Counted from the first letter of the stretch, positions 43,901-58,237 are shown. The stretch: 64,000 bases of DNA from an uncultured bacterium (GCA_963720265.1 CAVRET010000001.1:325916-389915), one strand, 5' to 3'. Program-made: numbers and translations. The notes: generated by a model from the letters alone, not told the origin.

Positions 43901-46900
43901 GAACGGCGGTGTACTCATTAATAGCCTTAGCTCGAGCGACACCCCGGTTACCGTTAATAGCAGTACCGGCGTGAGTACGCTCAAGATTGCGGACAGCGGT
44001 GCGACAACGTTTAAATCGTCGACCAATTCCACCACCGCCTTCCAGATACAGAATGCATCAGGTGAGGCTTTGCTTACGGCCGACACTACCAATACGGCAC
44101 TAGTTCTGGGTCAGGACAATACGCCCACCGATCTCACCGTCCGCGGTGGCGCCGCCAGCGGGCCAAATGTGGATGGCGGCGACATTACCTTCCAAGCTTC
44201 TAACGGCACTGGTGCTGCCGGCTCTGGTTCGCTCATCTTCCAAACTGCTCCGCCGGCCGGCGGGGGTGTTACCGAAGACAATTCCGGGACCTCAACCGCC
44301 AGTGCGTGTTCAACAGCCACCCTTAGCTTCACTACCGGATCCGGCTCAAACCGCTTGCTGCTCGTCGGAGCCGAAACCGGCGCCGGCGAGACCTACACTG
44401 CCGTGACCTACAATGGTACCAGCATGACGCAGCTGTCAACGCAGGACAGCGGGACCACGCACATTGAGCTGTGGTATCTGCTAAACCCTGCGTCAGGGGC
44501 GCATAACATTGTTGGCACCCTATCATCGACCCTGCATGGCTGCACGCTCGACGCAGTCTCATATGCCAACGTCAACCAAGTAACGCCGTTTGGTACGGCT
44601 GCCACTAATAGCGGCACAACTACGGGTTTGCAATCCACGAGCAATACCGTCAGCACCACCAGCGCTGCTCAAGTGGTGTTTGATGTTTTGGGGGCAGACG
44701 TCAGTGAGTCGATTGCACCCGGATCGGGCCAGACACAATTAGTAAACTTCCCGGGCACCGGGGGCTTCTACCCGCTGGGGGAGTCCAGCGCTCCGGGCAC
44801 GGGCGCCGCCGTTAACATGAATTGGGCCGTTAACTCGGCCGATTGGGCCGACATTGGCGTACCCATCAACCCGGTTGCCAATTCCACCGCCGACACCCTG
44901 CAAACCGTTCTGGATCTGGCCAACACGGGTAATGTCGGCATCGACAATTCCAACCCTCAGGAAACGCTCGATGTCGCCGGTACCGCCAATTTCCAGAACA
45001 CCACCAACTCCACCACCGCTTTCCAAGTGCAGAATGCGAGTGGCGCCAACCTCTTGACCGCCGATACGACTAACAACCAGATCCTGCTCGGCTCCGATAC
45101 CAACCTGATCCTCTCGGGGACCACCGCCTACATATCCAACCCTCAGGGCTATGGCGACAGTGAGGCTTTCGGAGCTGGTGCGTCGGTCACCTCGAGTAAT
45201 GCCACCGCCGTCGGCTACAATGCTAGCTCCTATTATGATGGGGCAGCAGTCGGGGATAATGCGGCCGCGGGCGGCTATGGCGTTGCACTTGGATACGATG
45301 CTGCCGCCACCTATGTAGGCACAGCCGTCGGCTCGGAATCGGATGCATCTGGGAACTACAGTACGGCGGTCGGTGGTGGAGCAGTCGCAGGGTCAAATTA
45401 CGCGACTGCGTTAGGCTACCTGGCAGCCGCTAACTCGGCTGACAGTATTGCGCTGGGCGCCGGATCTGTTACTAGCAGCGCGAACCAACTGGTTATTGGC
45501 AGTTCCACTGCCAATGGCGCCTATATTCAAGATGCCTACATCGGTTCGGGTATATCGGACATTGCGCCGCAGAGCATTACCGTGCACGCCACCGGCGGCA
45601 GTGGCAGCAACGTGGCCGGTGCCAACCTTAGCCTGGCCGGGGGTATCGGCACCGGTAATGCCAACGGCGGCAATATTAATCTCCAAGTTGCCAAGCCGGG
45701 GGTCAGCGGCTCGAGCGCTAATACGCTTGCAACCGTTGCATCCATCAGCGGCCTCAATGGCTCAGCGTTATTCCAAAATTCCACCGACTCCACCGCGGCT
45801 TTCCAAGTGCAGAACGCGAGTGGCACAAACCTGTTGGGCGTCGATACGTTCGACAGCACCGTGAGTCTAGGAGAAGCCGGTTCGGTCGGCGGTTCCGTGT
45901 ACGGTAAGACGGACATCGGCGGAACGGCGGGCTTCGGCTACTACGATGGCACCAGCGATGTACTTGCCGCCCAGCAGTTTAAGGCCACTGGAGGCGGTAC
46001 CATCTCGTCGCTGTCAACCTACATTGGTATGGTCAAATCTTCGCCGAACAACCAGGGCCAGATGGCAATCTACGCGGATAACGGCAGTAACGCGCCGGGC
46101 AGCTACATTGCATCCACAGGCGTCCACACGCTCACGGCCAACAGCTGGAACACCTGGTCAATAACCGACGGCACCGCCTCGTTGACAACAGGTAGTGAGT
46201 ACTGGCTGGTATATTGGACAAATGACGATGCCATTGATGGGGACAATGCACAGTACCTTGATACAGGCCAAGCCGGCCAGTTAGGGTACCTTTCCGACTA
46301 TGGGTCAGGCGTTAGCTTCGGCACCGGGCCCAATAACGGCATGCCGGCGACGATCCCTGGCGGAACTGTGCTCTCGGGTGCCTACTTCAGCATCTATGCG
46401 ACCTATGGCGGCTCGACTGCCGTACCAGTTACTATTGGTGCTGACGGCAGTGTGACGGCGCTTGGGGCGGCCACGTTCGGAGATTACCTAGATTCCACCA
46501 CCGCCTTCCAGGTGCAGAATGCGGCTGGGGCCAATCTGCTCGGTATCGACACCTCAGGCGACAATGTTAACGTCGGCTCTACGGGATCCACGGCGCTGGC
46601 CGGTACTATCAACGTCGGCACCTCCACCGGTGCGGCCCAGACCGTCAACGTCGGCTCAAACGACGGGGCATCGGCGACCACAATTCAGGGCGGCACCGGC
46701 AACGTCAACGTACTTTCAACTGCGAACATTACTCTGGGGCAGACCAGTACCAATGCCGGCGGAACGCTGGGCTATACCGGTATTGGTTCCAACGGGAACG
46801 GTTGTAGCGGAGGTTGTAATATTACAGCGTCGATGTTTACAACCACTAGTGGCGGTACCGTTGGGACAATGTCGGTGTACGTTAGCTCCCCGGCCTCGGG

Positions 46901-49142
46901 CGATCATTACCAATTTGCCATCTATAGTGACAATGCCGGGTCGCCGAATACCTACATTGCGTCATCCGCTGTGGGTACCCTCACTTCGGTCGCGGGTTGG
47001 TACACGCTGCCCATTACAGCGACACTCGCACCCAGCACCACCTACTGGATAACGTACGCTGATAATAGTGGAAATGACGGCATTAATTACAATAGCGGCC
47101 CGGCCGGTTATTATGTTTGCAATACCACGTTCACTTTCCAGAGCGGCCCGGATAACGGTTTTCCGGCCTCCTACCCAGGGGGTGGCAGCTGTTATCCAAC
47201 CACCCAGGCCAGCATTTATGCAACTTTCAGTGGTGGTACGCAGTCGGCAGTAACGATTAACAGTCTCGGCAACCTCACCGATACCGGTACGGCCAACTTT
47301 GAGGATACAAACGATTCCACCACCGCTTTCCAGGTGCAAAACTCTTCGAACGCGGCGGTGCTGAATGTGGATACGACGAATCAGGCGCTTAGTGTGGAGG
47401 CGTCGAACTCCTCAAGCACCACGCCGACGCTTAATGTAATTCAATCGGGTACCGGCGACGCCACGCTTTCGATACAGGATGCGGGGGCGAATTTCTACCA
47501 AGGCGTAAATGCCAACAATGGCAATGCCTTCACGATTAACTCCCAGTACGCTGCCACGCACAACTCGGATCTGGGTGAAGATTTCGAGTCCAGCGTGCCA
47601 AACGGCGATGACCAAAACTCCAGCTGGGCTGAGGCAACCGAGTTTACCGCCAGTTCTACCGGGACAATGTCGTCAATCAATGTGGCCTTTGATAGTCGAA
47701 TTAACTCCAGCAGTGTATTTTCGGTCGCTGTTTACTCAAATAACGCCGGCGCACCGGGTACGCTGTTGGGTTCATACAGCGGCACCCAGGTGATTCAGGT
47801 TCCGAACCCGGGGACGCTAAACATCAACTGGAATAACATTACACTGAATTCACCGGTGAGCGTCACGAGCGGTACGATCTATTGGCTCGCCTTCCAGGTG
47901 AACGACTCTTCAACGTTTGATGGCATTACTACTGGCGGTTTAAGCGCGTATCGGAGCGGCATCACCCCCGGGACCTGGGCTAACTGGAGCAGTATGGGCA
48001 CGAGCCAAGGCAATAGTACGGTTATAAACGGCGTGTATGCGGTGATTGATTCCAGTACATTGAGCGATACGTACGCAAACGGGCTGTTTTCGCTATCAAC
48101 GGCGGGTGCCGCGACGTTCCAGGGTGTTGCCGACTCGACCTCGGCTCTGACAGTGAAGAATGCGTCGGGCATACAGGTACTTAATGTCGATACGGCCAAC
48201 AGCAGCATTACGGTTAATAGCGCGGTAAACTCACCGGTGGCGTTCCAGGTCCAGAATCAATCAAATAACGACATTTTGACGGTTGACACAACCGATTCAC
48301 GAGTGGAAGTGGGTCCGAGCGGCGGAGGCACAACCGCTACATTATTGGTGCTGGGCATAAAGACCAGTTCCGGCGACCCAGCCGGTGTGACAGGGGCGAT
48401 GTATTATAACTCGAATACGGGTACATTCCGGTGCTACCAGAACAGTGCGTGGGTGAACTGTATTGCCACCGGACTTGGATCGTACCAGGTGCTCACCAGT
48501 ACCTCTGCCAACAGCACCTATACCACACCGGCCAATACCAAAGCGATTATGGTTGAGATGTGGGGTAGCGGTTCGGCGGGTGGTGGTGGCGGAGGCACTA
48601 CGGGTGATGGAGCTGCCGGTGCAGGGGGTGGGGCCGGTGGATACGCCCGCAAGGTTATCGTGGGTCCGGCCTCAACCTATAAGTACACGATCGCGGCCGG
48701 CGGTACTGCAGGTACAGCGGGTAACAACGCCGGTAACGCTCCGGGTTCCGCGAACTGTTTCGGTACCAACTCGACCGCTTGCAGCTCGCCGATTATTAGC
48801 TGCGCCGCCTCCACAGGCGGCGCCGGCATGGCCGCCGGTACAACCAATGCGGGGAGTACCGGCGGAGCCGGAGGCGCATGCACTGGAGGCGATCTCAACA
48901 CTACCGGGGCAGCGGGGCGAAACGGCTCGAGATGGTCTCAGACCGTGGCCCTATCGGGAGGTGGCGGAGGTACCCTCTTTGGTGACGGCGGATCTGGTAT
49001 TGGGCTGCAAGGGACCGGTATTACCGCTGGTAGTACCGTCTACGGCGCGGGCGGCGGCGGGGGCGTAGTGATCAACAGCGCTACTGCTACGGCCGGAGGT
49101 GCTGGGGCACAGGGCGTGATTATCGTTTGGGAATTTAAGTAA
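34911..49142 (+). CDS. Giant secreted modular surface protein, 4743 aa (alternative ATG start at 34965).
   Basis: Uninterrupted 14.2-kb ORF. Signal peptide MLRISLAFVAVGLVSVSLLTAGTARA. N-domain paralogous to giant 1. Three tandem ~276-aa CBM4_9-like modules (DDTFEGSG...AHGGSYSL...GHVYAFSAWVKA...SGWTQMTG...YLDDVTVTDE) carry a 66-bp perfect DNA repeat. Ancient internal duplication of an ~330-aa segment. 14 or more punctuation motifs. Gly-rich C-terminal tail. Confidence 0.85.
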   Translation: MRNWSLYGARTSRHVVQNMLRISLAFVAVGLVSVSLLTAGTARATSGTINDTMNFQGRLLTAAGAVVPDGNYNIEFKIYKNGDGQSTGDTTGSPSGTLLWTEDWLNNNSVTANTIPVVIKNGYFSVQLGSITTLPSTVTLDESVLWLSMTVAGSAGATSTSCTTFSACNSSGEPEMLPMKSLSAAPYAINAANANTLGGLTSSQFIQNTTSPQSSANIDIASGNAADPAAKLQQASSATAPVLTLELGGSPGVGGDLLDLQDSSTAVLDKFDSSGNLTLGNNSNKTISVAPAASGGGSSLTLMAGNGASGTNAGGNLILEAGASTGGAAGGSIIVKPQTDSTTAFQVENASGAALLTADAANTAIVLGQDTTPTNLTVRGGIASGSNVGGGNITFQASNGTGAAGSGSFVFQTAAPGGGITLDNTSYTGGSGNITLSFTTGSGSNRLLMVQAETNASRSFSGITYNGVSMTQVATENSLTNDDGVGAHVELWYLVNPASGTHNIVATMVGSGAGSLAAASFTNVNQTTPLGTAATGNGTASGTQQSSLSVATSAGQLVIDGIGTDVPSSGVGVDSPPASGQTQLWYSANSPSLYGAAGSTAPGTGSTVFMKWNVTNADWADIAVPINPASNSTADTLNNDLVIANSGNVGIDNSSPQNTLDVSGTARVQSTTNSATAFQVQDASGSSLLDVDTANTVVNVGTAGSTAVNVGGTAGSIGRTSIGSVQDVGANNLIVGYQYTAPSTGSIGSMSAYIGANVQSSPYNQYQFALYSDNGSNAPNAYLASSAVGTEAANTWNTLPISYSVTSGTKYWLVMWTNTTNSADNAPNGDTNVASSYVAYTTGQTFGSGPDNGFPATFPTPTYDASQYPDSVYASYNSTSGPAVTVSSTGTLGVYGSAIFESGSDSTTAFQIQNASAASLFNVDTSNDVVDVGATGTTGPSTTVNIGTSSNAAQTVNLGSTDGASATTIQGGTGNVSINTGAGSGSTGSITVESGNSSGGDSGNITVDTGTNSPGGTVVEDDTFEGSGTGSVDGYTNNDSSVTPTASNTTAHGGSYSLKLTEAGSYWYAFNAGTQSVTPGHVYAFSAWVKAASTSETMSGYLYWACGDDTYHAWGFATAVSSGWTQMTGTLTAPAVNSGCSPGTETVSMGITDNTFGGSSGEIQYLDDVTVTDESLITEPSVDIGTSNAQAVNIGGNNAGQYGPTTVEGGGGISLLAGTGASVNIGTSNSNNVTVGDASDIDSTTLQGGTLGVSINTGAQSGTTGAITLESGNSSGGDSGNVNIDTGTNSPGGTQVQDDTFEGSGSGSMDGYDNNDDGLSAISASNTTAHSGSYSLKVTESSAYWFANTSEDTTVTSGHVYAFSAWVKAASTGESIDANVYWGCSIGGIVQWGSATSTSSGWTQITGTATAPALYPGCIPGDEFAQLTFGGIAGTSGQIEYIDDATITDESSITEPSVNIGTLNAQAVNIGGNNAGQYGPTTVEGGGGISLLAGSGAPITIGTGNSNNVTVGDAYDEDATTLQGGSNGVSINTGDNYDGTGSISITTGNSTSDTAGNITIDTGTSTFSGSQVEDDDFETGTDTFGCWFGCVSATQSAAEAHGGSDSLAVAEDGSGSWGVIEGYPGVAATPGHEYAFTAWVRGTAAETVSADAFFPGSVGPGDTYDTVTDSTSGWTELTGDMTAPVGATNVYLGFTGGTAGGGATDYIDDITITDLGTVSAPNIAIGGTNAQQVTIGNENEGGYTSIYGGGDGISLQTSNGGTVALGTVNQSNISIGAVGSSTEDDVVQIDDTSGGGTSIVDIGGTATNDGSDTASTVNIQGGQTGLVVANAGATLQTYTDSTTALQVQNSSGGDVLNVDTTDGQVTAGNTNTARAEQEWDSHGTNQATLSDAPQADGDLLMLAVSIPSTSVTVSSVSGGGVSSWSNATSYTDSTVGYRTEIWEGTVTGAGAGTITVNYSSTPGGGCELAAQEFSAGVGAGWSVVATGHAVNSSSTTVTFPSLTATQTGQMYWGYMGAERVGAAGSYPGFSYVPTGYQNVIGYDTDLAEGTVYTPTASQSPAGTSLGSAVIISVTDGNALTVNGAETITNTNSINALQVQNSAGTSLLGIDTVNSQETIGTSDTTTFGNTYDAATAPEGGFGAGYYWDGVSQQELVAQSFTTAGGGPLSSLSTYVGTNGISSTNKLYQMAVYSDNAGQPGTYIASTAVGNLGSSAGWKTLPITATLASDTTYWLVYWTNVNDNNNNGQDIINTLRGTSNTQMWGTYENWQCSSGCGSSTNGMPNTYPTSGNNTTNGTIASIYATFANNLPALQIDSAGNSIQDGTALFQSQTDSDTALVVNNADDQPVLQVATTFNGVGVDCSPDGNYNLTVCAGGNGNGGGLSDLGYSYQLLNVQNDGNTYLGVDSINADVQSGDLSVGNSVNNLNGPGLLVSDNFESGNFSLWSGGSSGGESVTTSEAHSGRYSAETNVSSSTGYARTSFSSTSTTFTLNAWVWAHVLPTSGELPLFTLYQASTPTNKVQLYTDQNGCLGVINGTTDLGTDSCGTFIGDDDWNNIAISINRTTGEIALYAGLGYMYYGAQGSDYTGLTIGSGWDTLDMGVTSSNTGQYWVDDLAFGTGITPSLANGLTVQDSLHASGSATFGGQVLVQPASNSATAFQVQNASGYSVLSADTSSNSGQGQVVLGSSSNNNGTLLFDNSAGSSQVGLAVTSSNTNTYTLDLPIAVPSTNQCLLSGSSTPTQLTFGSCASGSAGINNQTTTQSNANFNIQSAGAADVGGVIQGASSQTADLLDLRDSASGNLAVVSAAGNEESLGYIDNAGIGGIGQYGNLLLDSEQLDQGGVSTPPWSTNSASLVVTANNTTAPDGNTTAEKLAGTGNVNISQSESTSAVATTYTFSVWLKQSSGAGTSGLCIYSTAGTPSSCTATAVTPNSTDWQRFSVTQAVTGSPTAITAEILPGNGSTATIYAWGAQLVVGTTPEVYTRTTAAAVAASSGVVTNGGVLINSLSSSDTPVTVNSSTGVSTLKIADSGATTFKSSTNSTTAFQIQNASGEALLTADTTNTALVLGQDNTPTDLTVRGGAASGPNVDGGDITFQASNGTGAAGSGSLIFQTAPPAGGGVTEDNSGTSTASACSTATLSFTTGSGSNRLLLVGAETGAGETYTAVTYNGTSMTQLSTQDSGTTHIELWYLLNPASGAHNIVGTLSSTLHGCTLDAVSYANVNQVTPFGTAATNSGTTTGLQSTSNTVSTTSAAQVVFDVLGADVSESIAPGSGQTQLVNFPGTGGFYPLGESSAPGTGAAVNMNWAVNSADWADIGVPINPVANSTADTLQTVLDLANTGNVGIDNSNPQETLDVAGTANFQNTTNSTTAFQVQNASGANLLTADTTNNQILLGSDTNLILSGTTAYISNPQGYGDSEAFGAGASVTSSNATAVGYNASSYYDGAAVGDNAAAGGYGVALGYDAAATYVGTAVGSESDASGNYSTAVGGGAVAGSNYATALGYLAAANSADSIALGAGSVTSSANQLVIGSSTANGAYIQDAYIGSGISDIAPQSITVHATGGSGSNVAGANLSLAGGIGTGNANGGNINLQVAKPGVSGSSANTLATVASISGLNGSALFQNSTDSTAAFQVQNASGTNLLGVDTFDSTVSLGEAGSVGGSVYGKTDIGGTAGFGYYDGTSDVLAAQQFKATGGGTISSLSTYIGMVKSSPNNQGQMAIYADNGSNAPGSYIASTGVHTLTANSWNTWSITDGTASLTTGSEYWLVYWTNDDAIDGDNAQYLDTGQAGQLGYLSDYGSGVSFGTGPNNGMPATIPGGTVLSGAYFSIYATYGGSTAVPVTIGADGSVTALGAATFGDYLDSTTAFQVQNAAGANLLGIDTSGDNVNVGSTGSTALAGTINVGTSTGAAQTVNVGSNDGASATTIQGGTGNVNVLSTANITLGQTSTNAGGTLGYTGIGSNGNGCSGGCNITASMFTTTSGGTVGTMSVYVSSPASGDHYQFAIYSDNAGSPNTYIASSAVGTLTSVAGWYTLPITATLAPSTTYWITYADNSGNDGINYNSGPAGYYVCNTTFTFQSGPDNGFPASYPGGGSCYPTTQASIYATFSGGTQSAVTINSLGNLTDTGTANFEDTNDSTTAFQVQNSSNAAVLNVDTTNQALSVEASNSSSTTPTLNVIQSGTGDATLSIQDAGANFYQGVNANNGNAFTINSQYAATHNSDLGEDFESSVPNGDDQNSSWAEATEFTASSTGTMSSINVAFDSRINSSSVFSVAVYSNNAGAPGTLLGSYSGTQVIQVPNPGTLNINWNNITLNSPVSVTSGTIYWLAFQVNDSSTFDGITTGGLSAYRSGITPGTWANWSSMGTSQGNSTVINGVYAVIDSSTLSDTYANGLFSLSTAGAATFQGVADSTSALTVKNASGIQVLNVDTANSSITVNSAVNSPVAFQVQNQSNNDILTVDTTDSRVEVGPSGGGTTATLLVLGIKTSSGDPAGVTGAMYYNSNTGTFRCYQNSAWVNCIATGLGSYQVLTSTSANSTYTTPANTKAIMVEMWGSGSAGGGGGGTTGDGAAGAGGGAGGYARKVIVGPASTYKYTIAAGGTAGTAGNNAGNAPGSANCFGTNSTACSSPIISCAASTGGAGMAAGTTNAGSTGGAGGACTGGDLNTTGAAGRNGSRWSQTVALSGGGGGTLFGDGGSGIGLQGTGITAGSTVYGAGGGGGVVINSATATAGGAGAQGVIIVWEFK

Positions 49143-52293: not shown

Positions 52294-53190
52294 TTATACC
52301 TGGTTTTGGAGTCTGGCGAGGACTGTGGCAAGGTCGGACGGTAACTGGCTCACCAGGTGCAGTTGCTTGCCATTTGGGGCTGTAAATTCGAGCTCGGCGG
52401 CGTGGAGAAACTGGCGTTTCAGCCCAAGCGGCCGAGTTTTGGGTCCATACACGATATCTCCGGCAACGGGGTGACCGAGTGCGGCCAAATGCACTCGAAT
52501 TTGGTGTGTCCGGCCAGTTTGCGGTTTAACCTCGATCTGACTATACCCGGGATACGTCTCGAGTGTGCGGTAGGTTGTTATAGCCGGCTTGCCGGTGGAA
52601 GTAACCAGACGCCGCAGGGGACGGGCCGGGTCGCGGCTGAGCGGCAGGTCAATGGCGGCGGCGGGGGGCTTGAGGGTGCCGATTGCAAGTGCCCGGTAGG
52701 TTTTATGAACGGTGCGCTTGCGGAATTGTTGTTGCAGTACCGCTTTGGCCGCAGTGGTTTTGGCAATGACGAGGAGGCCGGAAGTGTCGCGGTCGAGCCG
52801 GTGTACAATGCCGGGACGCTCCGGGTCCGGGTCGGTAGTGCGCTGCCTGGCGAAGTCGGCCACGGTCGAACTACCGCCGAGCCTGGCTGGGTGTACCGTA
52901 AGGCCGGCCGGTTTATCAACGACCAGCAAATCGGCATCTTCGTAGATGACTGTAAGCACAGGTGCGGCGCTGGGTAGCGGCGCTTTGGGAAGTTCTAGGT
53001 CAATCTCATCTCCCGGTTGGACTGCATAGCTCGCCCGTTCCGGCTGGTTGTTTACGCTTACCGAACCGTTTTTCAATAGTCGTCCGACAAAGCTGCGGGT
53101 TTGGCCGGTGGCAGATGCCAAGAAAACATCAAGCCGCCCAGGCCCAGCGTCTGCAGGAACGGTCAAGTGGGTTGGTGAATTTTCGGTCAC
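52294..53190 (-). CDS. rluD: RluA-family 23S rRNA pseudouridine synthase (RluD-like), with an N-terminal S4 domain.
   Basis: HRLDRDTSGLLVIAKT catalytic motif. N-terminal S4-like segment. 298 aa. Confidence 0.8.
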   Translation of the reverse strand: MTENSPTHLTVPADAGPGRLDVFLASATGQTRSFVGRLLKNGSVSVNNQPERASYAVQPGDEIDLELPKAPLPSAAPVLTVIYEDADLLVVDKPAGLTVHPARLGGSSTVADFARQRTTDPDPERPGIVHRLDRDTSGLLVIAKTTAAKAVLQQQFRKRTVHKTYRALAIGTLKPPAAAIDLPLSRDPARPLRRLVTSTGKPAITTYRTLETYPGYSQIEVKPQTGRTHQIRVHLAALGHPVAGDIVYGPKTRPLGLKRQFLHAAELEFTAPNGKQLHLVSQLPSDLATVLARLQNQV

Positions 53191-54182
53191 CGGATGAGTG
53201 CGGAGGCAGATGTGAGTTCGCGTTTGGGTCCGAGAATAATCAGCCGGTCGCCTGGATAAATGATTTCTTGACCGGTTGGGCGGACGCGACTCACGCCGTC
53301 GGCGCCGTTAATGGCAATTACGGTGGCACCGATTTGACCTTCGGCCAGTGATTTGCCAAGCCGATGCCCGGCCAGTTTGGAGTGCTCTCCTACTACCATC
53401 TCTTCGACTTCGAGATCAGCGTGGTCGGCTTTACTGGAGATAATATCCATATAATCGACCACGTTGGGTCTGAGCGCCATGGATGCCATATGGTAGCCGC
53501 CGATCTGATACGGCATGGCGACGCGGTTGGCGCCGGCCCGTTTGAGTTTGATTTCGTTTTCCGGCCGGTTGGCGCGGGCCACAATGTAAAGGTTTGGATT
53601 AAGCGAGCGAGCGGCGAGCGTGACGAACAGGTTAAGCGAATCCTCGCCTAAACAGGCCACGAGTCCGGCGGCCCGGCTGACGCCAACTTGCTGGAGCGTC
53701 TCCTCGGCCGTTGAGTCGAGCGGCAACGCATTGTAGCCCTTCGTTAGCGCGTCGGTGACCTTGGCTTGATCACGGTCAAGTCCAACAAACGGCACACCCT
53801 CGTGCTCCATTTCGGCTGCCACTTGGGCGCCGACTCGTCCGAGGCCGCAAATTATGTAATGATCCTTTAGCTTGTCGACTTTGGCCTTCACCCGAAACTT
53901 CCGCACGTTATCGCTTAAGCCCATCATATATTCGGCCAGCCATTTGAGCAAATAGGCGATAAGGGCGAGGCTTGATAGGGTAAGGAAGATAACTAGGGCC
54001 CGCGATACCGGGTCCGTTAGTTGGAGACTGTCGGAGCGATCGAGCAGGATAATGAGGGTTTCATAAAAAGCATTGCCCGGCGATACGTGGCCGGACCAAA
54101 CAAACCCCACCGTGCCAATTACAACTACGACACCCGTAATTATGGACAGCCGCCAGACTGTGCGAGCGTTGTGTTCTTGCAT
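53187..54182 (-). CDS. RCK/TrkA-N domain ion-channel-like membrane protein.
   Basis: Two N-terminal TM helices, then Rossmann IICGLGRVGAQVA (TrkA-N) and a TrkA-C-like C-terminus. A canonical TVGYG filter is not obvious. Confidence 0.7.
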   Translation of the reverse strand: MQEHNARTVWRLSIITGVVVVIGTVGFVWSGHVSPGNAFYETLIILLDRSDSLQLTDPVSRALVIFLTLSSLALIAYLLKWLAEYMMGLSDNVRKFRVKAKVDKLKDHYIICGLGRVGAQVAAEMEHEGVPFVGLDRDQAKVTDALTKGYNALPLDSTAEETLQQVGVSRAAGLVACLGEDSLNLFVTLAARSLNPNLYIVARANRPENEIKLKRAGANRVAMPYQIGGYHMASMALRPNVVDYMDIISSKADHADLEVEEMVVGEHSKLAGHRLGKSLAEGQIGATVIAINGADGVSRVRPTGQEIIYPGDRLIILGPKRELTSASALIR

Positions 54183-54287
54183 GTACTTGTATTATACCGC
54201 TTGAGGTTTGGTTGGTGCCAGAATGCGCACGACGTAGGGTGATGTAGACCGACCATTTCCGGTAGTAGCACCCGAGAAATGGTCGGT

Positions 54288-54806
54288 CTAGGCAACAGGT
54301 TGGATGAGCTGGTAAGCGTTGGGGCGTGTGCCGATTCCACGCTCAACTTGCAGCAACCCTTGCTCAACCATGGCCATTCTCACGGCATACATGAGATCGC
54401 GGCGAAACGGCAATTCGTGCTCATCCGCCAGTACGTTCAGCTCGATGTCACTGCCTTCCCAGCATCCCTGTTCGTTGCAGATGATGCGCAGAAGCTTGAG
54501 CGCGGCGTCGGCAAGGCGTGCGATAACGAGAGGCCCACCTGTGGGGTACTTTCGCCAAACCCGCAAGATCGCTTCTCGCCCATCGGAGGTTGGCAGAAGG
54601 TTGGCAAACTGAACTCGTTCGGCGGGTTGCATGCCGCCCCACATGTCATCTGGAATGTTGTGTTCAAGGGCGTGGTCGAGACATTTGGATAGTACCGGGC
54701 AAGACCAGCAAATGCTTCTTGCGTATGTCTGTTGACCTAGAGCGTGAAAATGTATTTTGCCAGTGACCGCACAGGCGGCGCGGCTATACCATTCGGGTTC
54801 AGACAT
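54288..54806 (-). CDS. WhiB-like (Wbl) Fe-S transcription factor with a ~90-aa C-terminal extension.
   Basis: Four Cys in the WhiB arrangement (AAC at 12; ICWSCPVLSKC) plus DMWGGM turn motif. 172 aa. Confidence 0.7.
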   Translation of the reverse strand: MSEPEWYSRAACAVTGKIHFHALGQQTYARSICWSCPVLSKCLDHALEHNIPDDMWGGMQPAERVQFANLLPTSDGREAILRVWRKYPTGGPLVIARLADAALKLLRIICNEQGCWEGSDIELNVLADEHELPFRRDLMYAVRMAMVEQGLLQVERGIGTRPNAYQLIQPVA

Positions 54807-54847
54807 TCGTCCAGCCTCTCCTGATTGAGTGGTCGTAATAGTGATAT

Positions 54848-54907
54848 CGCTTGAGGCCCGGCTTTCGTCGCTCTTTTGCGCGTGGGTCGCGAGTTGACAA
54901 GCCGGCC
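54848..54907 (-). repeat. Direct repeat copy C: a ~60-bp duplicate of the 3' end of the rpsI coding sequence.
   Basis: On the minus strand it reads AGLSTRDPRAKERRKPGLKR, matching uS9 residues AGLLTRDPREKERQKPGLKR, then diverges into the WhiB-like start region. Aligns to 57425..57483. Confidence 0.8.
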
Positions 54908-54936
54908 GTCCCCGTCTGATCAGGGAACGGCCGGCC
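54893..54936 (-). terminator. GC-rich hairpin downstream of the 215-aa ORF (putative terminator / cassette boundary).
   Basis: Perfect inverted repeat ggccggccgttccc-tgatcagac-gggaacggccggc on the minus strand. The U-tract is weak (TTGTCAA). Confidence 0.4.
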
Positions 54937-54971
54937 TTAGTGGAGAGCAGCTCGAGTCGGATGAGTGCCCG

Positions 54972-55619
54972 CTAGGCGGCGATCTCGGAATCATCGAGAT
55001 CGAGCACCAGCTGTAGGGCGTACCACGTCTCGAGCGTGCCGGTGATGTTGAGCCAGCCGCACTGCAGTCCGTAGTCGAGTACGGCAACAGCGGCGTCGTA
55101 ATCATCGGCGAACCGGGTTTCCTTGAATGCGTCGCACACGAGACCGACCGCTATCGAACTCCTGCTGGATCCGGTCATTGTGTGGCCCGGCCGTCCCAGG
55201 AGGTAGGCCGTGACCAGTGCCCGCTGGTCAGACAGGAGGTTGCGGGGGCGACGGCGGATTTGAGCCGGCGGCCACGGCGGTTTGGGCAGCATCTCCCGAA
55301 GCACTGAGGCGAGCTCGGCCGGCGGGGCCGAAACGAGCTGGAGGTCGTAAAGGCCGGTGAGCCTGGCGATACGCCAGTGCACGAGCGTGTTGTCGAGTGT
55401 TGCTAGGAGCCTAACGTAGCCGCCTTGGAACTCGACGGCGCGGCAGAGCTCGGCGAATGCGGTCCGTCCCTGTATTCGCATCTTCGCACAGTTGAGCAAA
55501 TACCCAACTACGCGGCAGCACAGGACCGGGCCGGAGTCCAGGAACAATCGCCACTGTTCGTCGGTAACGACGTCCTTTCGCGGATCGCGAGGAGGCGCCT
55601 CCATGGTGTCTGCTGCCAT
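54972..55619 (-). CDS. Hypothetical 215-aa protein (cassette ORF).
   Basis: Intact ORF ending ...DSEIAA. Its last two codons plus stop plus 9 nt (gtgcccgctaggcggc on plus) are identical to the 3' end of the 197-aa ORF. No known domain. Confidence 0.5.
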   Translation of the reverse strand: MAADTMEAPPRDPRKDVVTDEQWRLFLDSGPVLCCRVVGYLLNCAKMRIQGRTAFAELCRAVEFQGGYVRLLATLDNTLVHWRIARLTGLYDLQLVSAPPAELASVLREMLPKPPWPPAQIRRRPRNLLSDQRALVTAYLLGRPGHTMTGSSRSSIAVGLVCDAFKETRFADDYDAAVAVLDYGLQCGWLNITGTLETWYALQLVLDLDDSEIAA

Positions 55620-55876
55620 TTTTCCCCCTTCGCGGAAATTGGCAGGGATAGGGTCGATTGGCTTGGCTTATATTTCGAGTTACAACTGCAACCGTGGCCA
55701 TTATTTCAGATACATGAAGTTCGGTCAAAAACAAGCCCTCGGCGTGCGAAGCCGCCCGTTTCTGCTCATTTAACATAGCAGAGACGGGCGGCGACGAGGA
55801 TCCGGCGGTGCCGGCCCTTGAGTGGCCGCTAGGGCCAGATTGCGGAGCGGCGATATTGTGAACGACGTTCGTCCGC

Positions 55877-56251
55877 TTAGCGCAGATGTCCGGCTCGAAG
55901 CATGGCCGTTACCGGCGCACTTTGGACGGCTTCAATGAGATCGAAGGGTACGTTCGTGACAAAATCGTCGGCGGACTGTCGTTCGTACTCCTCGCGAGCG
56001 AGTTGGAGAAGCTCGCGCCACGAGGTGACCGCAGACCTGCGTCGCAAAAGGGCTCTGCGCTCGCGCTCGGTCATGCCGCCCCAGACACCGAATTCGATGC
56101 CGTTGTCGAGCGCATCGGCCAGGCACTCGGTGCGAACCGGGCACCCGCGACAGATGAGTTTCGCGCGGTTCTGAGCCGCACCTTGGACGAACAGTTCGTT
56201 CGTATCGGTGCCTTTGCAGGCGGCGCGAGTGGTCCAGTCGGTGATCCACAT
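55877..56251 (-). CDS. whiB: WhiB-family transcription factor (classical).
   Basis: AACKG, ICRGCPVRTEC and FGVWGGMTERERRAL. Full WhiB signature, 124 aa. Confidence 0.85.
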   Translation of the reverse strand: MWITDWTTRAACKGTDTNELFVQGAAQNRAKLICRGCPVRTECLADALDNGIEFGVWGGMTERERRALLRRRSAVTSWRELLQLAREEYERQSADDFVTNVPFDLIEAVQSAPVTAMLRAGHLR

Positions 56252-56445
56252 CTTTTGCTCCTTTGTTCCTCGGGGAACGGTGCTACACGTACCCCCAAGG
56301 GACGTGCTTGTGGTGTTATTCTACAATAATTGTGCGGTTGTTTTGACATTTTTTTAGATGTTTTGGCAGGAAGAGTGTGTGGCCGTAGTTTCGCGTAGCA
56401 AAAAACGACCCCGGTAGGCCGTTTCTTTCATTTTTTGGGTTGTTC

Positions 56446-56538
56446 AGCGCTTGGAGAACCGTGACGCTTTGCGGGCGCGCTTGTGGCCCGGCTTCCGTCA
56501 CTTTTTTTGCGCGTTGGTTGCGAGTTAATAGGCCGGCC
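56446..56538 (-). repeat. Direct repeat copy B: a ~93-bp duplicate of the 3' end of rpsI.
   Basis: ~85% identical to 57393..57483. On the minus strand it encodes *RKPGHKRARKASRFSKR*, versus real uS9 ...QKPGLKRARKASQFSKR*. Confidence 0.85.
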
Positions 56539-56550
56539 ATGCAGTGCGTG

Positions 56551-56596
56551 AAAAAAGCCAGCCGGCCGCCCCCAGGTGGTACGGGGACGGCCGGGC
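56551..56596 (-). terminator. Intrinsic terminator downstream of the 197-aa ORF.
   Basis: On the minus strand: gcccggccgtcccc-gtaccacctg-ggggcggccggc hairpin followed by TTTTTT. Confidence 0.6.
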
Positions 56597-56633
56597 GTGT
56601 TGCGGTGCCACTCGACATTGACCTGCGTGCCCG

Positions 56634-57227
56634 CTAGGCGGCCGTCGCGCTGGTGGTAAGCGCTTGTGAAGCGTAGTAAAGCTCCGCTCCAGGACTGCGC
56701 AGCCAGGTGATGCGAACGCCGGCGAAATCCGTGTCACCGATCAGTTCGTGCGCTGCCATTGCACGGATCTGAGTGCGCGCGCGAGCGGTGGGTATCCCGG
56801 CCCGGCGGGCGAAGTCTACGTCGGACAGTCCAGCGAGGCTGTAGTCGGTACGCGGTCCCAGCTCGATCAGGAATGTGAGCATCACCGCGACCAGCGCAGG
56901 ATCTGGACTAATCGTCGGCTTAGGGGGCCGATAGTTGGGCGGGTCTGCCATGAGCTTGAGCACCGGCATCTGTGCGGGATCGGTATTTACAGTGATGGTA
57001 GTTTCGACCGATGCCGGCAGGGAGACCGTAAAGACGCCGACGCCGTGCGATGTGGTGACGAGGTTCTCTTTGCGTGTCTCGGCCAACGTATCGATGACCT
57101 GGCCGATGCCAGACCACCCCAGTGCGTCCCGGATCCGGCGATAGGCGGTGACCACGGTGGCGCCGGTTATTGGCCCTTGGCTGAGTAGATCGAGAAGTTG
57201 GTTTACTTGGGCGTCCACTCGTGACAC
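56634..57227 (-). CDS. Hypothetical 197-aa protein (cassette ORF).
   Basis: Intact ORF ending ...TTSATAA, sharing the 3' boundary sequence with the 215-aa ORF. No known domain. Confidence 0.5.
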   Translation of the reverse strand: MSRVDAQVNQLLDLLSQGPITGATVVTAYRRIRDALGWSGIGQVIDTLAETRKENLVTTSHGVGVFTVSLPASVETTITVNTDPAQMPVLKLMADPPNYRPPKPTISPDPALVAVMLTFLIELGPRTDYSLAGLSDVDFARRAGIPTARARTQIRAMAAHELIGDTDFAGVRITWLRSPGAELYYASQALTTSATAA

Positions 57228-57390
57228 CTCCGGTTGTCATTGGCCGAGAGCTAGTGTGCACTCGGGAACGGGTTGCGTTCTGTCGCAAGCCGAGTCAAGG
57301 CTCAACGTAATTATTACTGAATTTCGGGAATTATCCTAGTGCTTGAGATGAGCATGAAACGGATCGTGAAGGGGTGGAATTCGGACCGGA

Positions 57391-57789
57391 TTAGCGCTTG
57401 GAGAACTGTGACGCTTTGCGGGCGCGCTTGAGGCCCGGCTTTTGCCGCTCTTTTTCGCGCGGGTCACGAGTTAACAAGCCGGCCTTTCTGAGGGTTGGAT
57501 GAAGGTCGGTGCTCATGACTTGAAGGGCGCGGGCGATGGCTAGTTTGGCGGCATCGGCCTGGCCACGCTTGCCGCCGCCTTTGAGGTTTAGCGTAATGCG
57601 TAACTTTTGTTCTTGGCCGGCCAACTTAACCGGACTCTCGACCGCTGTAAGCAGGGCTGCATTGTTGAAATAATCGGCAGCAGGGCGCTCGCCTACTAGG
57701 ATTTCGCCTTTGCCGGGGTAGATTCTAACCGTGGCAATGGCGGCCTTGCGCCGGCCGCGGGCGTAGTGATAATGCTGGGCATCAGCCAT
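57391..57789 (-). CDS. rpsI: 30S ribosomal protein S9.
   Basis: YARGRRKAAIATVRIYPGKG ... C-terminal PGLKRARKASQFSKR. The last ~95 nt (57393..57483) are the master copy of repeats B and C. Confidence 0.9.
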   Translation of the reverse strand: MADAQHYHYARGRRKAAIATVRIYPGKGEILVGERPAADYFNNAALLTAVESPVKLAGQEQKLRITLNLKGGGKRGQADAAKLAIARALQVMSTDLHPTLRKAGLLTRDPREKERQKPGLKRARKASQFSKR

Positions 57790-58237
57790 TTACGGCCTCC
57801 TTGATTGGCTTAGGGTTTTGACCGGCGTGTGGATGTTCGGCTCCGGGATAGACCTTGAGGCGGCGCAGGCGGTCGTCGGTCAGCCTGTTTTTGGGTAACA
57901 TTCCACCTACGGCATGCTCAATGACACGGGCCGGATGGCGCTCGAGCACCTCGGCCAGCGTCGCGTCCTTGATGCCGCCGGGATAGCCGGAATGGCGGTA
58001 ATACTTTTTGTCGGTTAGTTTGGTACCGGTGACGCGTACTTTAGCCGCGTTGATAATTACCACATTGTCACCACAGTCGAGATGCGGTGCGTATTGAACT
58101 TTGTTTTTACCGAGCAGATGCGTGGCAGCTAAGGTACTTAAGCGCCCCAGGGTATAATCGGTTGCGTCAATGACGTACCAATCGTGTGATAGTTCTGCCG
58201 GTTTGGGTGAATAGGTTTTGGTCATAGTGCTGCTCAT
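57782..58237 (-). CDS. rplM: 50S ribosomal protein L13.
   Basis: WYVIDATDYTLGRLSTLAATHLLGKNK...HSGYPGG uL13 signature. 8-nt overlap with rpsI. Confidence 0.9.
   Translation of the reverse strand: MSSTMTKTYSPKPAELSHDWYVIDATDYTLGRLSTLAATHLLGKNKVQYAPHLDCGDNVVIINAAKVRVTGTKLTDKKYYRHSGYPGGIKDATLAEVLERHPARVIEHAVGGMLPKNRLTDDRLRRLKVYPGAEHPHAGQNPKPIKEAVNG

What the first reader, a model, noticed from the sequence alone, without database searches (positions are those of the whole stretch)
54848..57483. Triplicated rpsI 3' end with terminator hairpins demarcating WhiB cassettes downstream of rpsI
The last ~95 nt of the rpsI coding sequence (57393..57483) recur as direct repeats at 56446..56538 (~85% identity, encoding a pseudo C-terminus ...KRARKASRFSKR*) and at 54848..54907. 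Immediately upstream of each extra copy, on the minus strand, lies a GC-rich hairpin. Beyond that lies a second conserved boundary, gtgcccgctaggcggc, spanning the last two codons, the stop and 9 nt of two otherwise unrelated ORFs (197 aa and 215 aa). The genes delimited by the repeats are the 197-aa ORF, then a classical WhiB plus the 215-aa ORF, then a second WhiB-like gene. This is the scar pattern of serial site-specific insertion at the 3' end of rpsI. Each insertion would bring its own rpsI 3' end and displace the old one. It resembles tRNA-3'-end islands or integron/att cassette arrays, but targets a ribosomal protein gene, and no recombinase lies nearby. An alternative is repeated illegitimate duplication of an rpsI-terminator unit.
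Basis: seen in the sequence. Interest (0 to 1): 0.75.

Follow-up and report, generated by a model that had tools for sequence, protein, structure and literature searches.

The report
Duplicated rpsI gene-end scars, variable locus
A Saccharimonadia (TM7/CPR) genome carries two decayed extra copies of the end of ribosomal protein gene rpsI in a hypervariable spot between rpsI and trkA; they look like scars of past recombination, not a working gene-cassette system.

Summary
The last 93 nt of rpsI (R1) recur as a frameshifted pseudo-end (R2, about 84% identical) and as a 60-nt fragment (R3, 90%). Each extra copy sits behind a GC-rich hairpin and an exact 16-nt box. A second assembly shows the same arrangement.

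The window comes from Candidatus Saccharimonadia. In its relatives the rpsI-trkA interval varies from 40 nt to 3.2 kb, and several have an empty site. None of 119 related loci repeats its rpsI end. None of 20 cargo-bearing intervals holds even a decayed remnant.

The only homologue of orf197 lies directly after rpsI in another lineage (L135). There the order is orf197-like, WhiB1, a second WhiB, trkA, without repeats. L135 also carries the same hairpin as the terminator after WhiB1. The nearest relative (L134) has WhiB1 and its hairpin directly abutting trkA. R2's left part and R3 are sister pseudo-copies attached to a duplicated terminator module. The window encodes no recognisable recombinase.

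My best reading (0.45) is a patchwork of alternative versions of this locus, joined head-to-tail through rpsI homology and GGCCGGC microhomology. Integrase-mediated accretion of decayed elements remains a rival (0.25). The rpsI 3' end is already a known integration target in streptococci. Interest is modest.

The parts
57391..57789 (-). rpsI (ribosomal protein S9, 132 aa), intact
   Evidence: PF00380 at E = 2.8e-39. It lies in the syntenic order rpoA-rplQ-rplM-rpsI seen in relatives.
57393..57484 (-). R1: the functional last 93 nt of rpsI and reference copy of the repeat
56634..57227 (-). orf197: a fast-evolving protein of unknown function. It is cotranscribed with or follows rpsI, and no terminator lies in the 163-nt spacer.
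   Evidence: Codon-position GC and frame bias are gene-like. It matches no Pfam, PHROG or NCBIfam family. It has one homologue, P0123 (35-38% identical), located directly after rpsI in L135.
56627..56642 (-). box copy 1, GCCGCCTAGCGGGCAC (last two codons and stop of orf197, plus 7 nt)
56552..56594 (-). hp1: terminator hairpin with a 13-bp stem and T-run
   Evidence: The 3' arm plus T-run matches the L135 terminator downstream of WhiB1 at 22 of 23 positions.
56443..56538 (-). R2: pseudo rpsI 3' end with a 1-nt frameshift and a TGA stop. Against R1 the left 55 nt are 76% identical and the right 38 nt 95%.
56400..56427 (-). terminator hairpin and U-run directly after the R2 stop, with the same layout as native rpsI ends in relatives
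   Evidence: z = -2.3. Compare L002, L007, L009 and L062.
55877..56251 (-). WhiB1: a classical WhiB-like protein and native resident of this locus
   Evidence: PF02467 at E = 6.5e-25. Orthologues at the same locus in L135 (88%), L062 (74%), L053, L057/L058, L006, L004 and L134.
55751..55844 (-). box-like motif (CCCTAGCGGCCACTCA) plus hairpin hp', the native WhiB1 3' region. Homology to the nearest relative ends right after the hairpin.
   Evidence: hp' is orthologous to L134 (score 58, 0 of 300 shuffles reach it). The box-like match is 14 of 15 positions, reached by 5 of 500 shuffles. Fold z = -4.5.
54972..55619 (-). orf215: an orphan protein with no homologue found in a word-indexed search of 5.8 billion sequences (not put through the more sensitive representative search)
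54965..54980 (-). box copy 2 (last two codons and stop of orf215, plus 7 nt)
54901..54935 (-). hp2: hairpin with a 15-bp stem. Its 3' arm (GGGGACGGCCGGC) overlaps the first 7 nt of R3.
   Evidence: z = -3.3. It matches L135 hairpinB at 14 of 14 positions.
54848..54907 (-). R3: a 60-nt fragment of the rpsI 3' end, truncated at CCTCAAGCG
54288..54806 (-). WhiB2: WhiB domain plus a C-terminal extension of about 105 aa
   Evidence: PF02467 at E = 9.4e-15. It is 40% identical to WhiB1 within the domain.
54245..54290 (-). hp3: perfect 15-bp hairpin overlapping the WhiB2 stop
   Evidence: z = -7.1
54191..54206 (-). CCTCAAGCGGTATAAT: conserved trkA promoter-like motif and right edge of the variable island. 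It shares the 9-mer CCTCAAGCG with the point where R3 is truncated.
53187..54182 (-). trkA-like gene, the conserved right flank of the island

Best explanation
The 3.2-kb stretch between rpsI and trkA is a patchwork of alternative versions of one hypervariable locus. The versions were joined head-to-tail by ordinary recombination, not by a dedicated cassette recombinase.

Proposed mechanism (inferred, not shown):
1. DNA from closely related cells carrying a different version of the locus was taken up. Saccharibacteria are naturally competent.
2. It was integrated additively instead of replacing the resident version.
3. On one side the shared rpsI coding sequence served as the homologous anchor. 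On the other side the joint formed at GC-rich microhomology: GGCCGGC(T) is both the first 7-8 nt of the repeat and the 3' arm of the locus's own terminator hairpin.

The first event placed rpsI-end/orf197/terminator-module in front of the resident rpsI-end/terminator/WhiB1. This left R2 as a displaced pseudo-end. A later event copied the junction (terminator module plus the first 60 nt of the pseudo-end) to a position in front of WhiB2, together with orf215. That gave R3.

The extra copies have no function and are decaying (frameshift, truncation). The hairpins act as ordinary transcription terminators.

What is shown: the repeats, their decay, the module structure, the synteny and the empty sites. 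What is inferred: the order of events, the donor and the enzymology.
For: - The hotspot has empty sites and unrelated cargo in relatives.
- The components are native to the same locus in another lineage. P0123, the only homologue of orf197, lies immediately after rpsI in L135. It is followed by WhiB1 (88% identical), a second WhiB and trkA, without repeats.
- hp1 and hp2 match L135's WhiB1 terminator at 22 of 23 and 14 of 14 positions. The window's own WhiB1 hairpin matches L134's instead. The island therefore mixes two versions of the locus.
- Homology between R1 and R2 ends exactly at the stop codon, as expected when two versions share only coding sequence.
- All three R copies share synonymous states specific to this lineage (TTA Leu, GCCGGGCC), so the source was this lineage itself.
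- R2's left part and R3 share at least 3 derived states and sit behind homologous modules (75% identical). The junction therefore arose once and was then copied.
- GGCCGGC(T) microhomology lies at the hp2|R3 joint, and GGCCGGC repeats flank the 29-nt indel in the other copy.
- No recombinase was recognised in the window.
- No repeated rpsI ends occur in 119 related loci or 20 cargo-bearing intervals.
- Natural competence and homologous integration have been demonstrated in Saccharibacteria (PMC10633639).
Against: - No donor version has been found. orf215 has no homologue anywhere searched.
- The second event needs a joint between the WhiB1 hairpin and the DNA upstream of orf215, and no homology is visible there.
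- Additive, duplicating outcomes of transformation are rarer than replacement.
- R2's uneven divergence (13 differences in 55 nt against 2 in 38; p = 0.02) and the exact sharing of the box by two unrelated ORFs are accommodated by this model, not predicted by it.
- A direct repeat of a gene's 3' end that runs exactly to the stop codon is also the classic signature of integrase-mediated insertion.
- Only 64 kb of a contig of at least 568 kb could be inspected for recombinases.
Confidence: 0.45

Rival explanations
1. Integrase-mediated accretion. Small elements integrated site-specifically into the 3' end of rpsI, each carrying a replacement gene end. They have since lost their integrase, or never had one and were mobilised in trans. 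This would make them like the cis-mobilisable elements (CIMEs) that pile up in tandem next to streptococcal ICEs and IMEs. The box-hairpin-R-left module would be the conserved arm of the element's attachment site.
For: - The direct repeats consist of the target gene's 3' end and run exactly to the stop codon. The functional copy is intact and the displaced copy carries a native-style terminator.
- Close relatives have empty sites.
- A conserved module of about 150 nt sits next to both extra copies.
- R2 is a mosaic, compatible with a crossover near position 55-60, which is also where R3 ends.
- There is precedent for the rpsI 3' end as a tyrosine-integrase target and for tandem accretion of decayed elements (PMC4701971, PMC5704250).
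Against: - No integrase was recognised in the 64-kb window.
- No related element turned up in IMG/VR scans.
- No repeated rpsI end or remnant occurs in any relative.
- Both the cargo (the orf197 family) and the supposed attachment-site arm (the hairpin) are native, syntenic parts of the locus in L135, without repeats.
- WhiB1 and hp' are native and contiguous with trkA in L134, so R3 is not a displaced gene end.
- The units are only 0.95 and 1.6 kb long.
- The repeats are only 76-95% identical.
- Serial displacement does not predict the derived states shared by R2 and R3.
Confidence: 0.25
2. Intrachromosomal tandem amplification followed by reductive loss. Unequal crossing-over between the GGCCGGCT in rpsI and the same octamer in the terminator hairpin duplicated, then triplicated, the whole unit running from the rpsI end to the terminator. 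Deletions then removed every redundant gene copy. What remains is orf197 in unit 1, WhiB1 and orf215 in unit 2, and only 60 nt of unit 3.
For: - The same hairpin|R junction appears twice, with GGCCGGC microhomology.
- The tree (R1,(R2,R3)) is as expected if the pseudo-copy was itself re-duplicated.
- The gene order matches L135.
- No gene is present twice, which fits genome streamlining.
- The box shared by orf197 and orf215 could be the scar of a deletion between similar ORF ends.
Against: - It needs at least 5 events (2 duplications and 3 deletions).
- One deletion endpoint would have to fall exactly on R2's stop codon.
- hp1 and hp2 resemble L135's terminator, whereas the positional equivalent in the window (hp') resembles L134's. 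This argues for mixing of versions and against purely internal duplication.
- orf215 is absent from L135 and L134.
Confidence: 0.2
3. The repeated rpsI fragment with its hairpin is a functional regulatory module, kept upstream of each WhiB gene. It might be an RNA element, an operator or a promoter.
For: - R2 lies upstream of WhiB1 and R3 upstream of WhiB2.
- The hairpin arm is unusually conserved between the window and L135.
- R2's right part is 95% identical to R1.
Against: - R has no significant fold (z = -0.1 to -0.9).
- There is no Rfam match at E <= 1.
- WhiB1 orthologues in L062, L135, L058 and L053 lack any R copy upstream.
- R2 and R3 differ in length and in distance to the start codon (195 nt against 41 nt).
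- R2 and R3 show a frameshift and substitutions with no conserved sub-block beyond what they share with R1.
Confidence: 0.05
4. Assembly artefact: a mis-join or collapsed repeat.
For: The source is a metagenome-derived genome.
Against: - A second assembly (Logan, run ERR11523669) gives the identical island.
- The copies differ by 10-24% and have unique flanks, so an assembler would not confuse them.
Confidence: 0.02

Closest known systems
IMESag-rpsI and streptococcal ICEs/IMEs integrated in the 3' end of rpsI (tyrosine integrases)
   Same: The target gene and the position within it are the same (the 3' end of the S9 gene). The inserted DNA supplies a replacement gene end, so rpsI stays intact, and direct repeats of the gene end flank the insert (PMC4701971, PMC5704250).
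   Different: Those elements are about 9 kb or larger. They encode an integrase and mobilisation or replication genes, and they recur in many strains. Here the units are 0.95-1.6 kb, have no integrase, occur in a single lineage, and carry genes native to the locus in a relative.
Tandem accretion of ICEs with cis-mobilisable elements (CIMEs; the ICESt1/ICESt3 family at fda in Streptococcus thermophilus)
   Same: There are three or more direct copies of a gene's 3' end that delimit integrase-less units in tandem (described in PMC5704250).
   Different: A CIME is defined relative to a functional sibling element with the same attachment sites. No such sibling, integrase or excision product is known here. 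The attachment-site-like repeats are also diverged (76-95%), not identical.
Integron cassette arrays and CALINs (attC clusters lacking an integrase)
   Same: Small co-oriented units of one or two genes are each followed by a hairpin-forming repeat, and no recombinase lies nearby.
   Different: - The hairpins are orthologous to an ordinary terminator in a relative.
- The repeat is a fragment of a housekeeping gene.
- No GTTRRRY/RYYYAAC core sites are present (R reads GTTAACT, GTCAACT, ATTAACT).
- No IntI or attI was found.
- The genes have their own promoter-like regions and terminators.
Homology-facilitated illegitimate recombination and additive (Campbell-type) integration in naturally transformable bacteria
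   Same: One homologous anchor is combined with a GC-rich microhomology joint, and the result is a duplication of the anchor flanking the inserted DNA. Competence and homologous integration have been shown for Saccharibacteria (PMC10633639).
   Different: This mechanism has not been demonstrated for this organism or locus. The donor is unknown, and a second round that copied the junction is required.
Core-gene-flanked hotspots of gene gain and loss in bacterial chromosomes
   Same: The interval between two conserved genes (rpsI and trkA) ranges from empty to several kb of unrelated cargo across relatives.
   Different: Hotspots normally leave no duplicated flank. Here two fragments of the left flank persist inside the island.

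Membership tests
Site-specific integrative element at a gene 3' end (ICE/IME/prophage type) | Direct repeats (attL/attR) made of the target gene's 3' end flank the insert, and the gene is restored | tested here: met
   R1 and R2 are 93 nt long, run to the stop codon, and rpsI is intact. R3 is only partial (60 nt) and does not lie at a displaced gene end.
Site-specific integrative element at a gene 3' end (ICE/IME/prophage type) | An integrase (tyrosine or serine recombinase) is encoded at one end of the element | tested here: not met
   The four island proteins and 20 other ORFs of 150 aa or more in the window have no recombinase Pfam hit. The island proteins also have no recombinase hit in PHROGs or NCBIfam.
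Site-specific integrative element at a gene 3' end (ICE/IME/prophage type) | The same element or attachment site recurs at the same target in other genomes, alongside empty sites | tested here: not met
   Empty sites exist (L056, L002, L007, L008, L009, L063). However, 0 of 119 loci have repeated ends and 0 of 20 cargo-bearing intervals have remnants. IMG/VR scans for R and for the box found nothing related.
Site-specific integrative element at a gene 3' end (ICE/IME/prophage type) | Excision to a circular form with a reconstituted attP | not testable with these tools
   No read-level data were available.
CIME (cis-mobilisable element) accretion | An integrase-less unit is bounded by attachment sites identical to those of a functional sibling element | tested here: inconclusive
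   The units lack an integrase and are bounded by R copies. No sibling element is known, and the repeats are 76-95% identical, not identical.
Integron / CALIN cassette array | attC sites with conserved R''/R' core sequences (RYYYAAC ... GTTRRRY) and an extrahelical-base hairpin architecture | tested here: not met
   By inspection of the alignments, R reads GTTAACT, GTCAACT or ATTAACT, which does not fit GTTRRRY. The hairpins are perfect GC stems orthologous to a terminator in L135.
Integron / CALIN cassette array | An IntI integrase and attI/Pc platform (for an integron), or at least two attC sites (for a CALIN) | tested here: not met
   No tyrosine recombinase was found in the window, and no attC-type sites are present.
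Xer-dependent modules (dif / pdif modules, IMEX) | 28-bp XerC-spacer-XerD sites bound the modules, usually in alternating orientation | tested here: not met
   The repeat search found only direct copies of R and the box. The only inverted repeats are the hairpins themselves. No dif-like 11-6-11 site was seen by inspection.
Tandem segmental duplication / amplification | Head-to-tail units share one novel junction | tested here: met
   The hairpin|R junction is present twice and homologous over about 150 nt (75%), differing by a 29-nt indel between GGCCGGC repeats.
Tandem segmental duplication / amplification | Unit interiors are homologous to each other | tested here: not met
   orf197 is unrelated to WhiB1 and to orf215. 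No DNA similarity exists between the unit interiors.
Homology-facilitated illegitimate / additive integration | A homologous anchor on one side and a short GC-rich microhomology at the other joint | tested here: inconclusive
   An anchor (rpsI) and GGCCGGC(T) microhomology at hp2|R3 are present. The hp1-R2 joint shows no identifiable microhomology, and the donor is unknown.
Structured RNA / known RNA family | A significant fold or a covariance-model match | tested here: not met
   R1, R2 and R3 fold with z = -0.1, +0.2 and -0.9. There are no Rfam hits at E <= 1 in 54000-57900.

The most novel reading that the evidence does not exclude
The box-hairpin-R module is a recombination site (analogous to attC or attP). 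A recombinase encoded elsewhere in the genome, or by a co-resident element, uses it to capture and shuffle one- or two-gene units at the 3' end of rpsI. This would be an integron-like gene-capture platform in CPR bacteria, built on a ribosomal-protein gene. The unusually conserved hairpin arm shared with L135 would be the protein-binding site.
Probability: 0.1. Interest if true: 0.75.

Novelty: new member of a known kind. Interest (0 to 1): 0.3.

Why it matters
If the best explanation holds, this is a small but clear fossil of how a streamlined, naturally competent CPR bacterium reshuffles a variable locus. Alternative versions are added in series through a shared core-gene end and then pruned.

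Its wider value is indirect, through two by-products:
- It pinpoints the rpsI-trkA interval as a hotspot of gene turnover in Saccharimonadia.
- It shows that WhiB-like regulators, usually regarded as an actinobacterial and actinophage family, are long-term chromosomal residents of this hotspot in bacteria that live on Actinobacteria.

If the minority reading (recombinase-driven cassettes) were true, it would extend integron-like or CIME-like gene capture to the candidate phyla radiation.

Tried and rejected
- IMG/VR scans. The box 16-mer gave 8 hits, all unrelated in context and at chance level. The degenerate R pattern gave 0 hits.
- Homologue searches. orf215 and orf197 returned only themselves in 5.8 billion proteins. 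Only the more sensitive representative search found one orf197 homologue.
- Structure prediction. Single-sequence AlphaFold models of orf197 and orf215 were unusable (pLDDT 41 and 42), so I ran no fold search.
- Test of orf215 as a diverged paralogue of orf197, or of the WhiB2 C-terminal extension. hhalign probability was 0.2%, so this was rejected.
- Candidate fourth R copy upstream of trkA. Only the 9-mer CCTCAAGCG plus TAT matches (8 of 500 shuffles reach the score). The rest is random, and the motif belongs to a conserved trkA promoter-like element. I do not count it as a copy.
- Candidate decayed R after the WhiB1 hairpin (GGCTTGTT...). It is not significant (91 of 500 shuffles).
- Sequence homology between the spacer after R2 and the rpsI-WhiB1 spacers of L062 and L058. 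It is not significant. The claim that R2 is the ancestral end therefore rests on layout and synteny only.
- Exact-sequence look-ups. WhiB1 and WhiB2 found no record. The rpsI look-up found only the same strain, so no strain-level presence/absence data exist.
- Rfam search of the island found nothing.
- GC profile. The island does not stand out. orf197, orf215 and WhiB1 have only slightly higher GC3.

Full report
WHAT IS THERE

All genes of interest lie on the minus strand in this order:
- rpoA, rplQ, rplM
- rpsI (57391-57789)
- orf197 (56634-57227)
- WhiB1 (55877-56251)
- orf215 (54972-55619)
- WhiB2 (54288-54806)
- trkA-like (53187-54182), rluD, holB

The last 93 nt of rpsI (R1, 57393-57484) recur twice.
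- R2 (56446-56538) is 89% identical over 63 nt and about 84% over 93 nt. A 1-nt insertion breaks the frame. The last 16 codons still read KPGHKRARKASRFSKR and are followed by TGA.
- R3 (54848-54907) matches at 54 of 60 positions. Its similarity to rpsI stops at ...CCTCAAGCG.

An R probe is expected 0.00 times by chance.

Each extra copy is preceded by a strong GC hairpin:
- hp1, 56562-56594, has 13 bp and a T-run.
- hp2, 54901-54935, has 15 bp.

Further upstream lies the exact 16-mer GCCGCCTAGCGGGCAC, which spans the last two codons and stop of orf197 and of orf215 (chance expectation 0.11). An independent Logan assembly of run ERR11523669 is 99.96% identical over 13.9 kb, with no difference inside the island.

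REFINED ANATOMY

The repeated unit is a module: box, spacer of about 30 nt, hairpin, then the first 60 nt of R.
- The two copies are 75% identical over 142 aligned nt.
- They differ by a 29-nt segment flanked by GGCCGGC repeats.
- In copy 3 the hairpin's 3' arm (GGGGACGGCCGGC) overlaps the first 7 nt of R.

R2 is a mosaic relative to R1. There are 13 differences in the left 55 nt and 2 in the right 38 nt (Fisher p = 0.02). R2 is followed by its own terminator at 56400-56427, the same stop-then-terminator layout seen after rpsI in relatives.

All three R copies share synonymous states found only in this lineage (TTA Leu, GCCGGGCC), so they arose within it. R2's left part and R3 also share at least three derived states against R1 and 18 outgroup sequences, including non-synonymous ones: GAA to GCA and CAA to CGR. 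That gives the tree (R1,(R2,R3)).

R has no significant RNA fold, and the island has no Rfam match.

orf197 and orf215 have gene-like codon-position statistics. They match no family in Pfam, PHROGs or NCBIfam, and their single-sequence AlphaFold models were unusable.

No ORF of 150 aa or more in the window matches a recombinase family. The two giant ORFs and a few ORFs overlapping larger ones were not scanned.

COMPARATIVE EVIDENCE

The window belongs to Candidatus Saccharimonadia.

Across relatives the order rplM-rpsI ... trkA-rluD-holB is conserved, but the rpsI-trkA interval is hypervariable:
- It is about 40-150 nt (empty) in L056 (the closest rpsI, 87%), L002, L007, L008, L009 and L063.
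- It holds WhiB1 alone in L062.
- It holds unrelated cargo of 0.5-3.2 kb in others.

None of 119 related loci carries a second copy of its own rpsI end. A Smith-Waterman test with shuffles found no decayed remnant in any of 20 cargo-bearing intervals. The triplication is therefore specific to this lineage.

orf215 and orf197 returned only themselves among 5.8 billion proteins. A more sensitive search of 1.8 billion representatives found one homologue of orf197: P0123, 35-38% identical.

P0123 is encoded in L135 and five smaller contigs, immediately downstream of rpsI. The arrangement there is rpsI, orf197-like, hairpin, WhiB1 orthologue (88% identical), hairpin, a second extended WhiB, hairpin, trkA. 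It has no rpsI repeats.

L135's terminator after WhiB1 (TGGGGACGGCCGGCTGGCTTTTT) matches hp1 at 22 of 23 positions and hp2 at 14 of 14. The rest of the non-coding DNA is unalignable.

The nearest relative by trkA (L134, 87%) has WhiB1 followed by a hairpin orthologous to the window's 55751-55792 (score 58; 0 of 300 shuffles reach it). The trkA promoter-like motif follows directly. Relative to L134, the block from orf215 to WhiB2 (about 54207-55735) is therefore an insertion between the WhiB1 terminator and the trkA promoter.

The locus is indeed a site of gene gain and loss with empty sites, and R2 does look like an rpsI end displaced by DNA that brought a working replacement. The serial-cassette picture nevertheless fails on five points.
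1. The 'cassette' genes and the hairpin are native, syntenic components of the same locus in another lineage that lacks repeats.
2. WhiB1 and its hairpin are native and adjacent to trkA in the nearest relative. R3 is therefore not an older gene end pushed downstream. It is a fragment that travelled with a copy of the terminator module.
3. R2's left part and R3 are sister pseudo-copies, which serial displacement does not predict.
4. No relative shows repeats.
5. No recombinase, viral counterpart or circular form was found.

The rpsI 3' end is also already a documented target of tyrosine integrases of streptococcal ICEs and IMEs. Tandem accretion of integrase-less remnants (CIMEs) is a described process (PMC4701971, PMC5704250).

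MOST LIKELY MECHANISM (INFERRED)

The island mixes features of two versions of the locus:
- an L135-type version: orf197 after rpsI, with the GGCCGGC hairpin;
- an L134-type version: rpsI end, terminator, WhiB1, hp'.

I propose that versions of the locus were joined additively. Homologous pairing in the rpsI coding end formed one joint, which explains why R1/R2 similarity stops exactly at the stop codon. An illegitimate joint formed at or near GGCCGGC(T), an octamer present both at the start of R and in the terminator's 3' arm.

The hairpin|R junction arose once, and the pseudo-end then accumulated changes. The junction was later copied in front of WhiB2 together with orf215. A 29-nt deletion between GGCCGGC repeats and a truncation at CCTCAAGCG followed. 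CCTCAAGCG is a 9-mer that recurs at the conserved trkA promoter-like motif.

Saccharibacteria are naturally competent and integrate DNA by homologous recombination (PMC10633639). I put 0.45 on this mechanism.

Rivals and their weights:
- integrase-mediated accretion of decayed elements, 0.25;
- internal tandem amplification with reductive loss, 0.2;
- a functional regulatory repeat, 0.05;
- an assembly artefact, 0.02.

Several things remain unexplained:
- the near-identity of the hairpin arm between lineages whose neighbouring protein is only 35% identical;
- R2's uneven divergence;
- the exact sharing of the box by two unrelated ORFs.

VERDICT

The feature is real, specific to one lineage and decaying. 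It is best read as a recombination scar in a hypervariable locus, not as an active or novel cassette system. Its kind is known (a duplicated gene 3' end flanking inserted DNA), and its setting (a CPR bacterium, very small units, no integrase) is new. Interest is 0.3.

The most novel reading not excluded is an integron-like capture platform on rpsI. I give it a probability of about 0.1. It would deserve an interest of about 0.75 if true.

Noticed in passing
window 55877-56251 and 54288-54806; L135 10954-11256 and 11463-11954; L062 1969-2271; L053, L057/L058, L004, L006, L010, L005, L134: WhiB-like (PF02467) genes are long-term chromosomal residents of the rpsI-trkA interval in many Candidatus Saccharimonadia genomes. 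WhiB1 is 88% identical between lineages whose S9 proteins are about 78% identical. WhiB is usually regarded as an actinobacterial and actinophage family, and cultivated Saccharibacteria live on Actinobacteria. No held paper mentions WhiB in Saccharibacteria or CPR themselves.
   Followed up: partly
rpsI-trkA interval in L001-L014, L028, L052-L068, L134, L135: The interval between rpsI and trkA is a hotspot of gene turnover, ranging from 40 nt to 3.2 kb. Its cargo is unrelated between relatives: nucleotidyltransferase-like, AAA-kinase-like, MBL-fold, threonine synthase, a 291-aa kinase-like protein, a 430-460-aa charged protein, and WhiB paralogues.
   Followed up: partly
window 54191-54206 (minus strand); L056 3657-3672; L062 2455-2470; L063 6780-6795; L134 about 330-350: A conserved promoter-like motif, CA(C/T)AAGCGnTATAAT, lies 10-25 nt upstream of the trkA start codon in the window and its relatives. 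This implies a very short or absent leader.
   Followed up: partly
window 56552-56574 and L135 11362-11384: The terminator 3' arm plus T-run, TGGGG(A/G)CGGCCGGCTGGCTTTTT, is 22 of 23 identical between two lineages. Their surrounding non-coding DNA is unalignable, and the neighbouring ORF is only 35-38% identical. This suggests a sequence-specific constraint or a recent exchange.
   Followed up: partly
window 19724-33103 and 34911-49142 (+ strand): Two giant ORFs of 4459 and 4743 aa lie side by side. They were not examined.
   Followed up: no
window 17654-19642 (+ strand): A 662-aa protein combines pectate-lyase/beta-helix domains with a BppL_N (phage lower baseplate) N-terminal motif and a DUF5907 repeat. 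It resembles a phage tail fibre or depolymerase, and lies just upstream of the giant ORFs.
   Followed up: no
L005 10505-11620: In one relative the gene between rpsI and trkA is a 371-aa protein with a WhiB domain fused to a C-terminal extension of about 270 aa. The window's WhiB2 and L135's second WhiB also carry extensions of about 100 aa that are unrelated to each other.
   Followed up: no
window 55700-55728 (minus strand): This is the only sigma-70-like promoter match in the island (TTGACC, 17-nt spacer, AATAAT, with a TG extension). It lies about 80 nt upstream of orf215, just after the point where homology to L134 ends.
   Followed up: no
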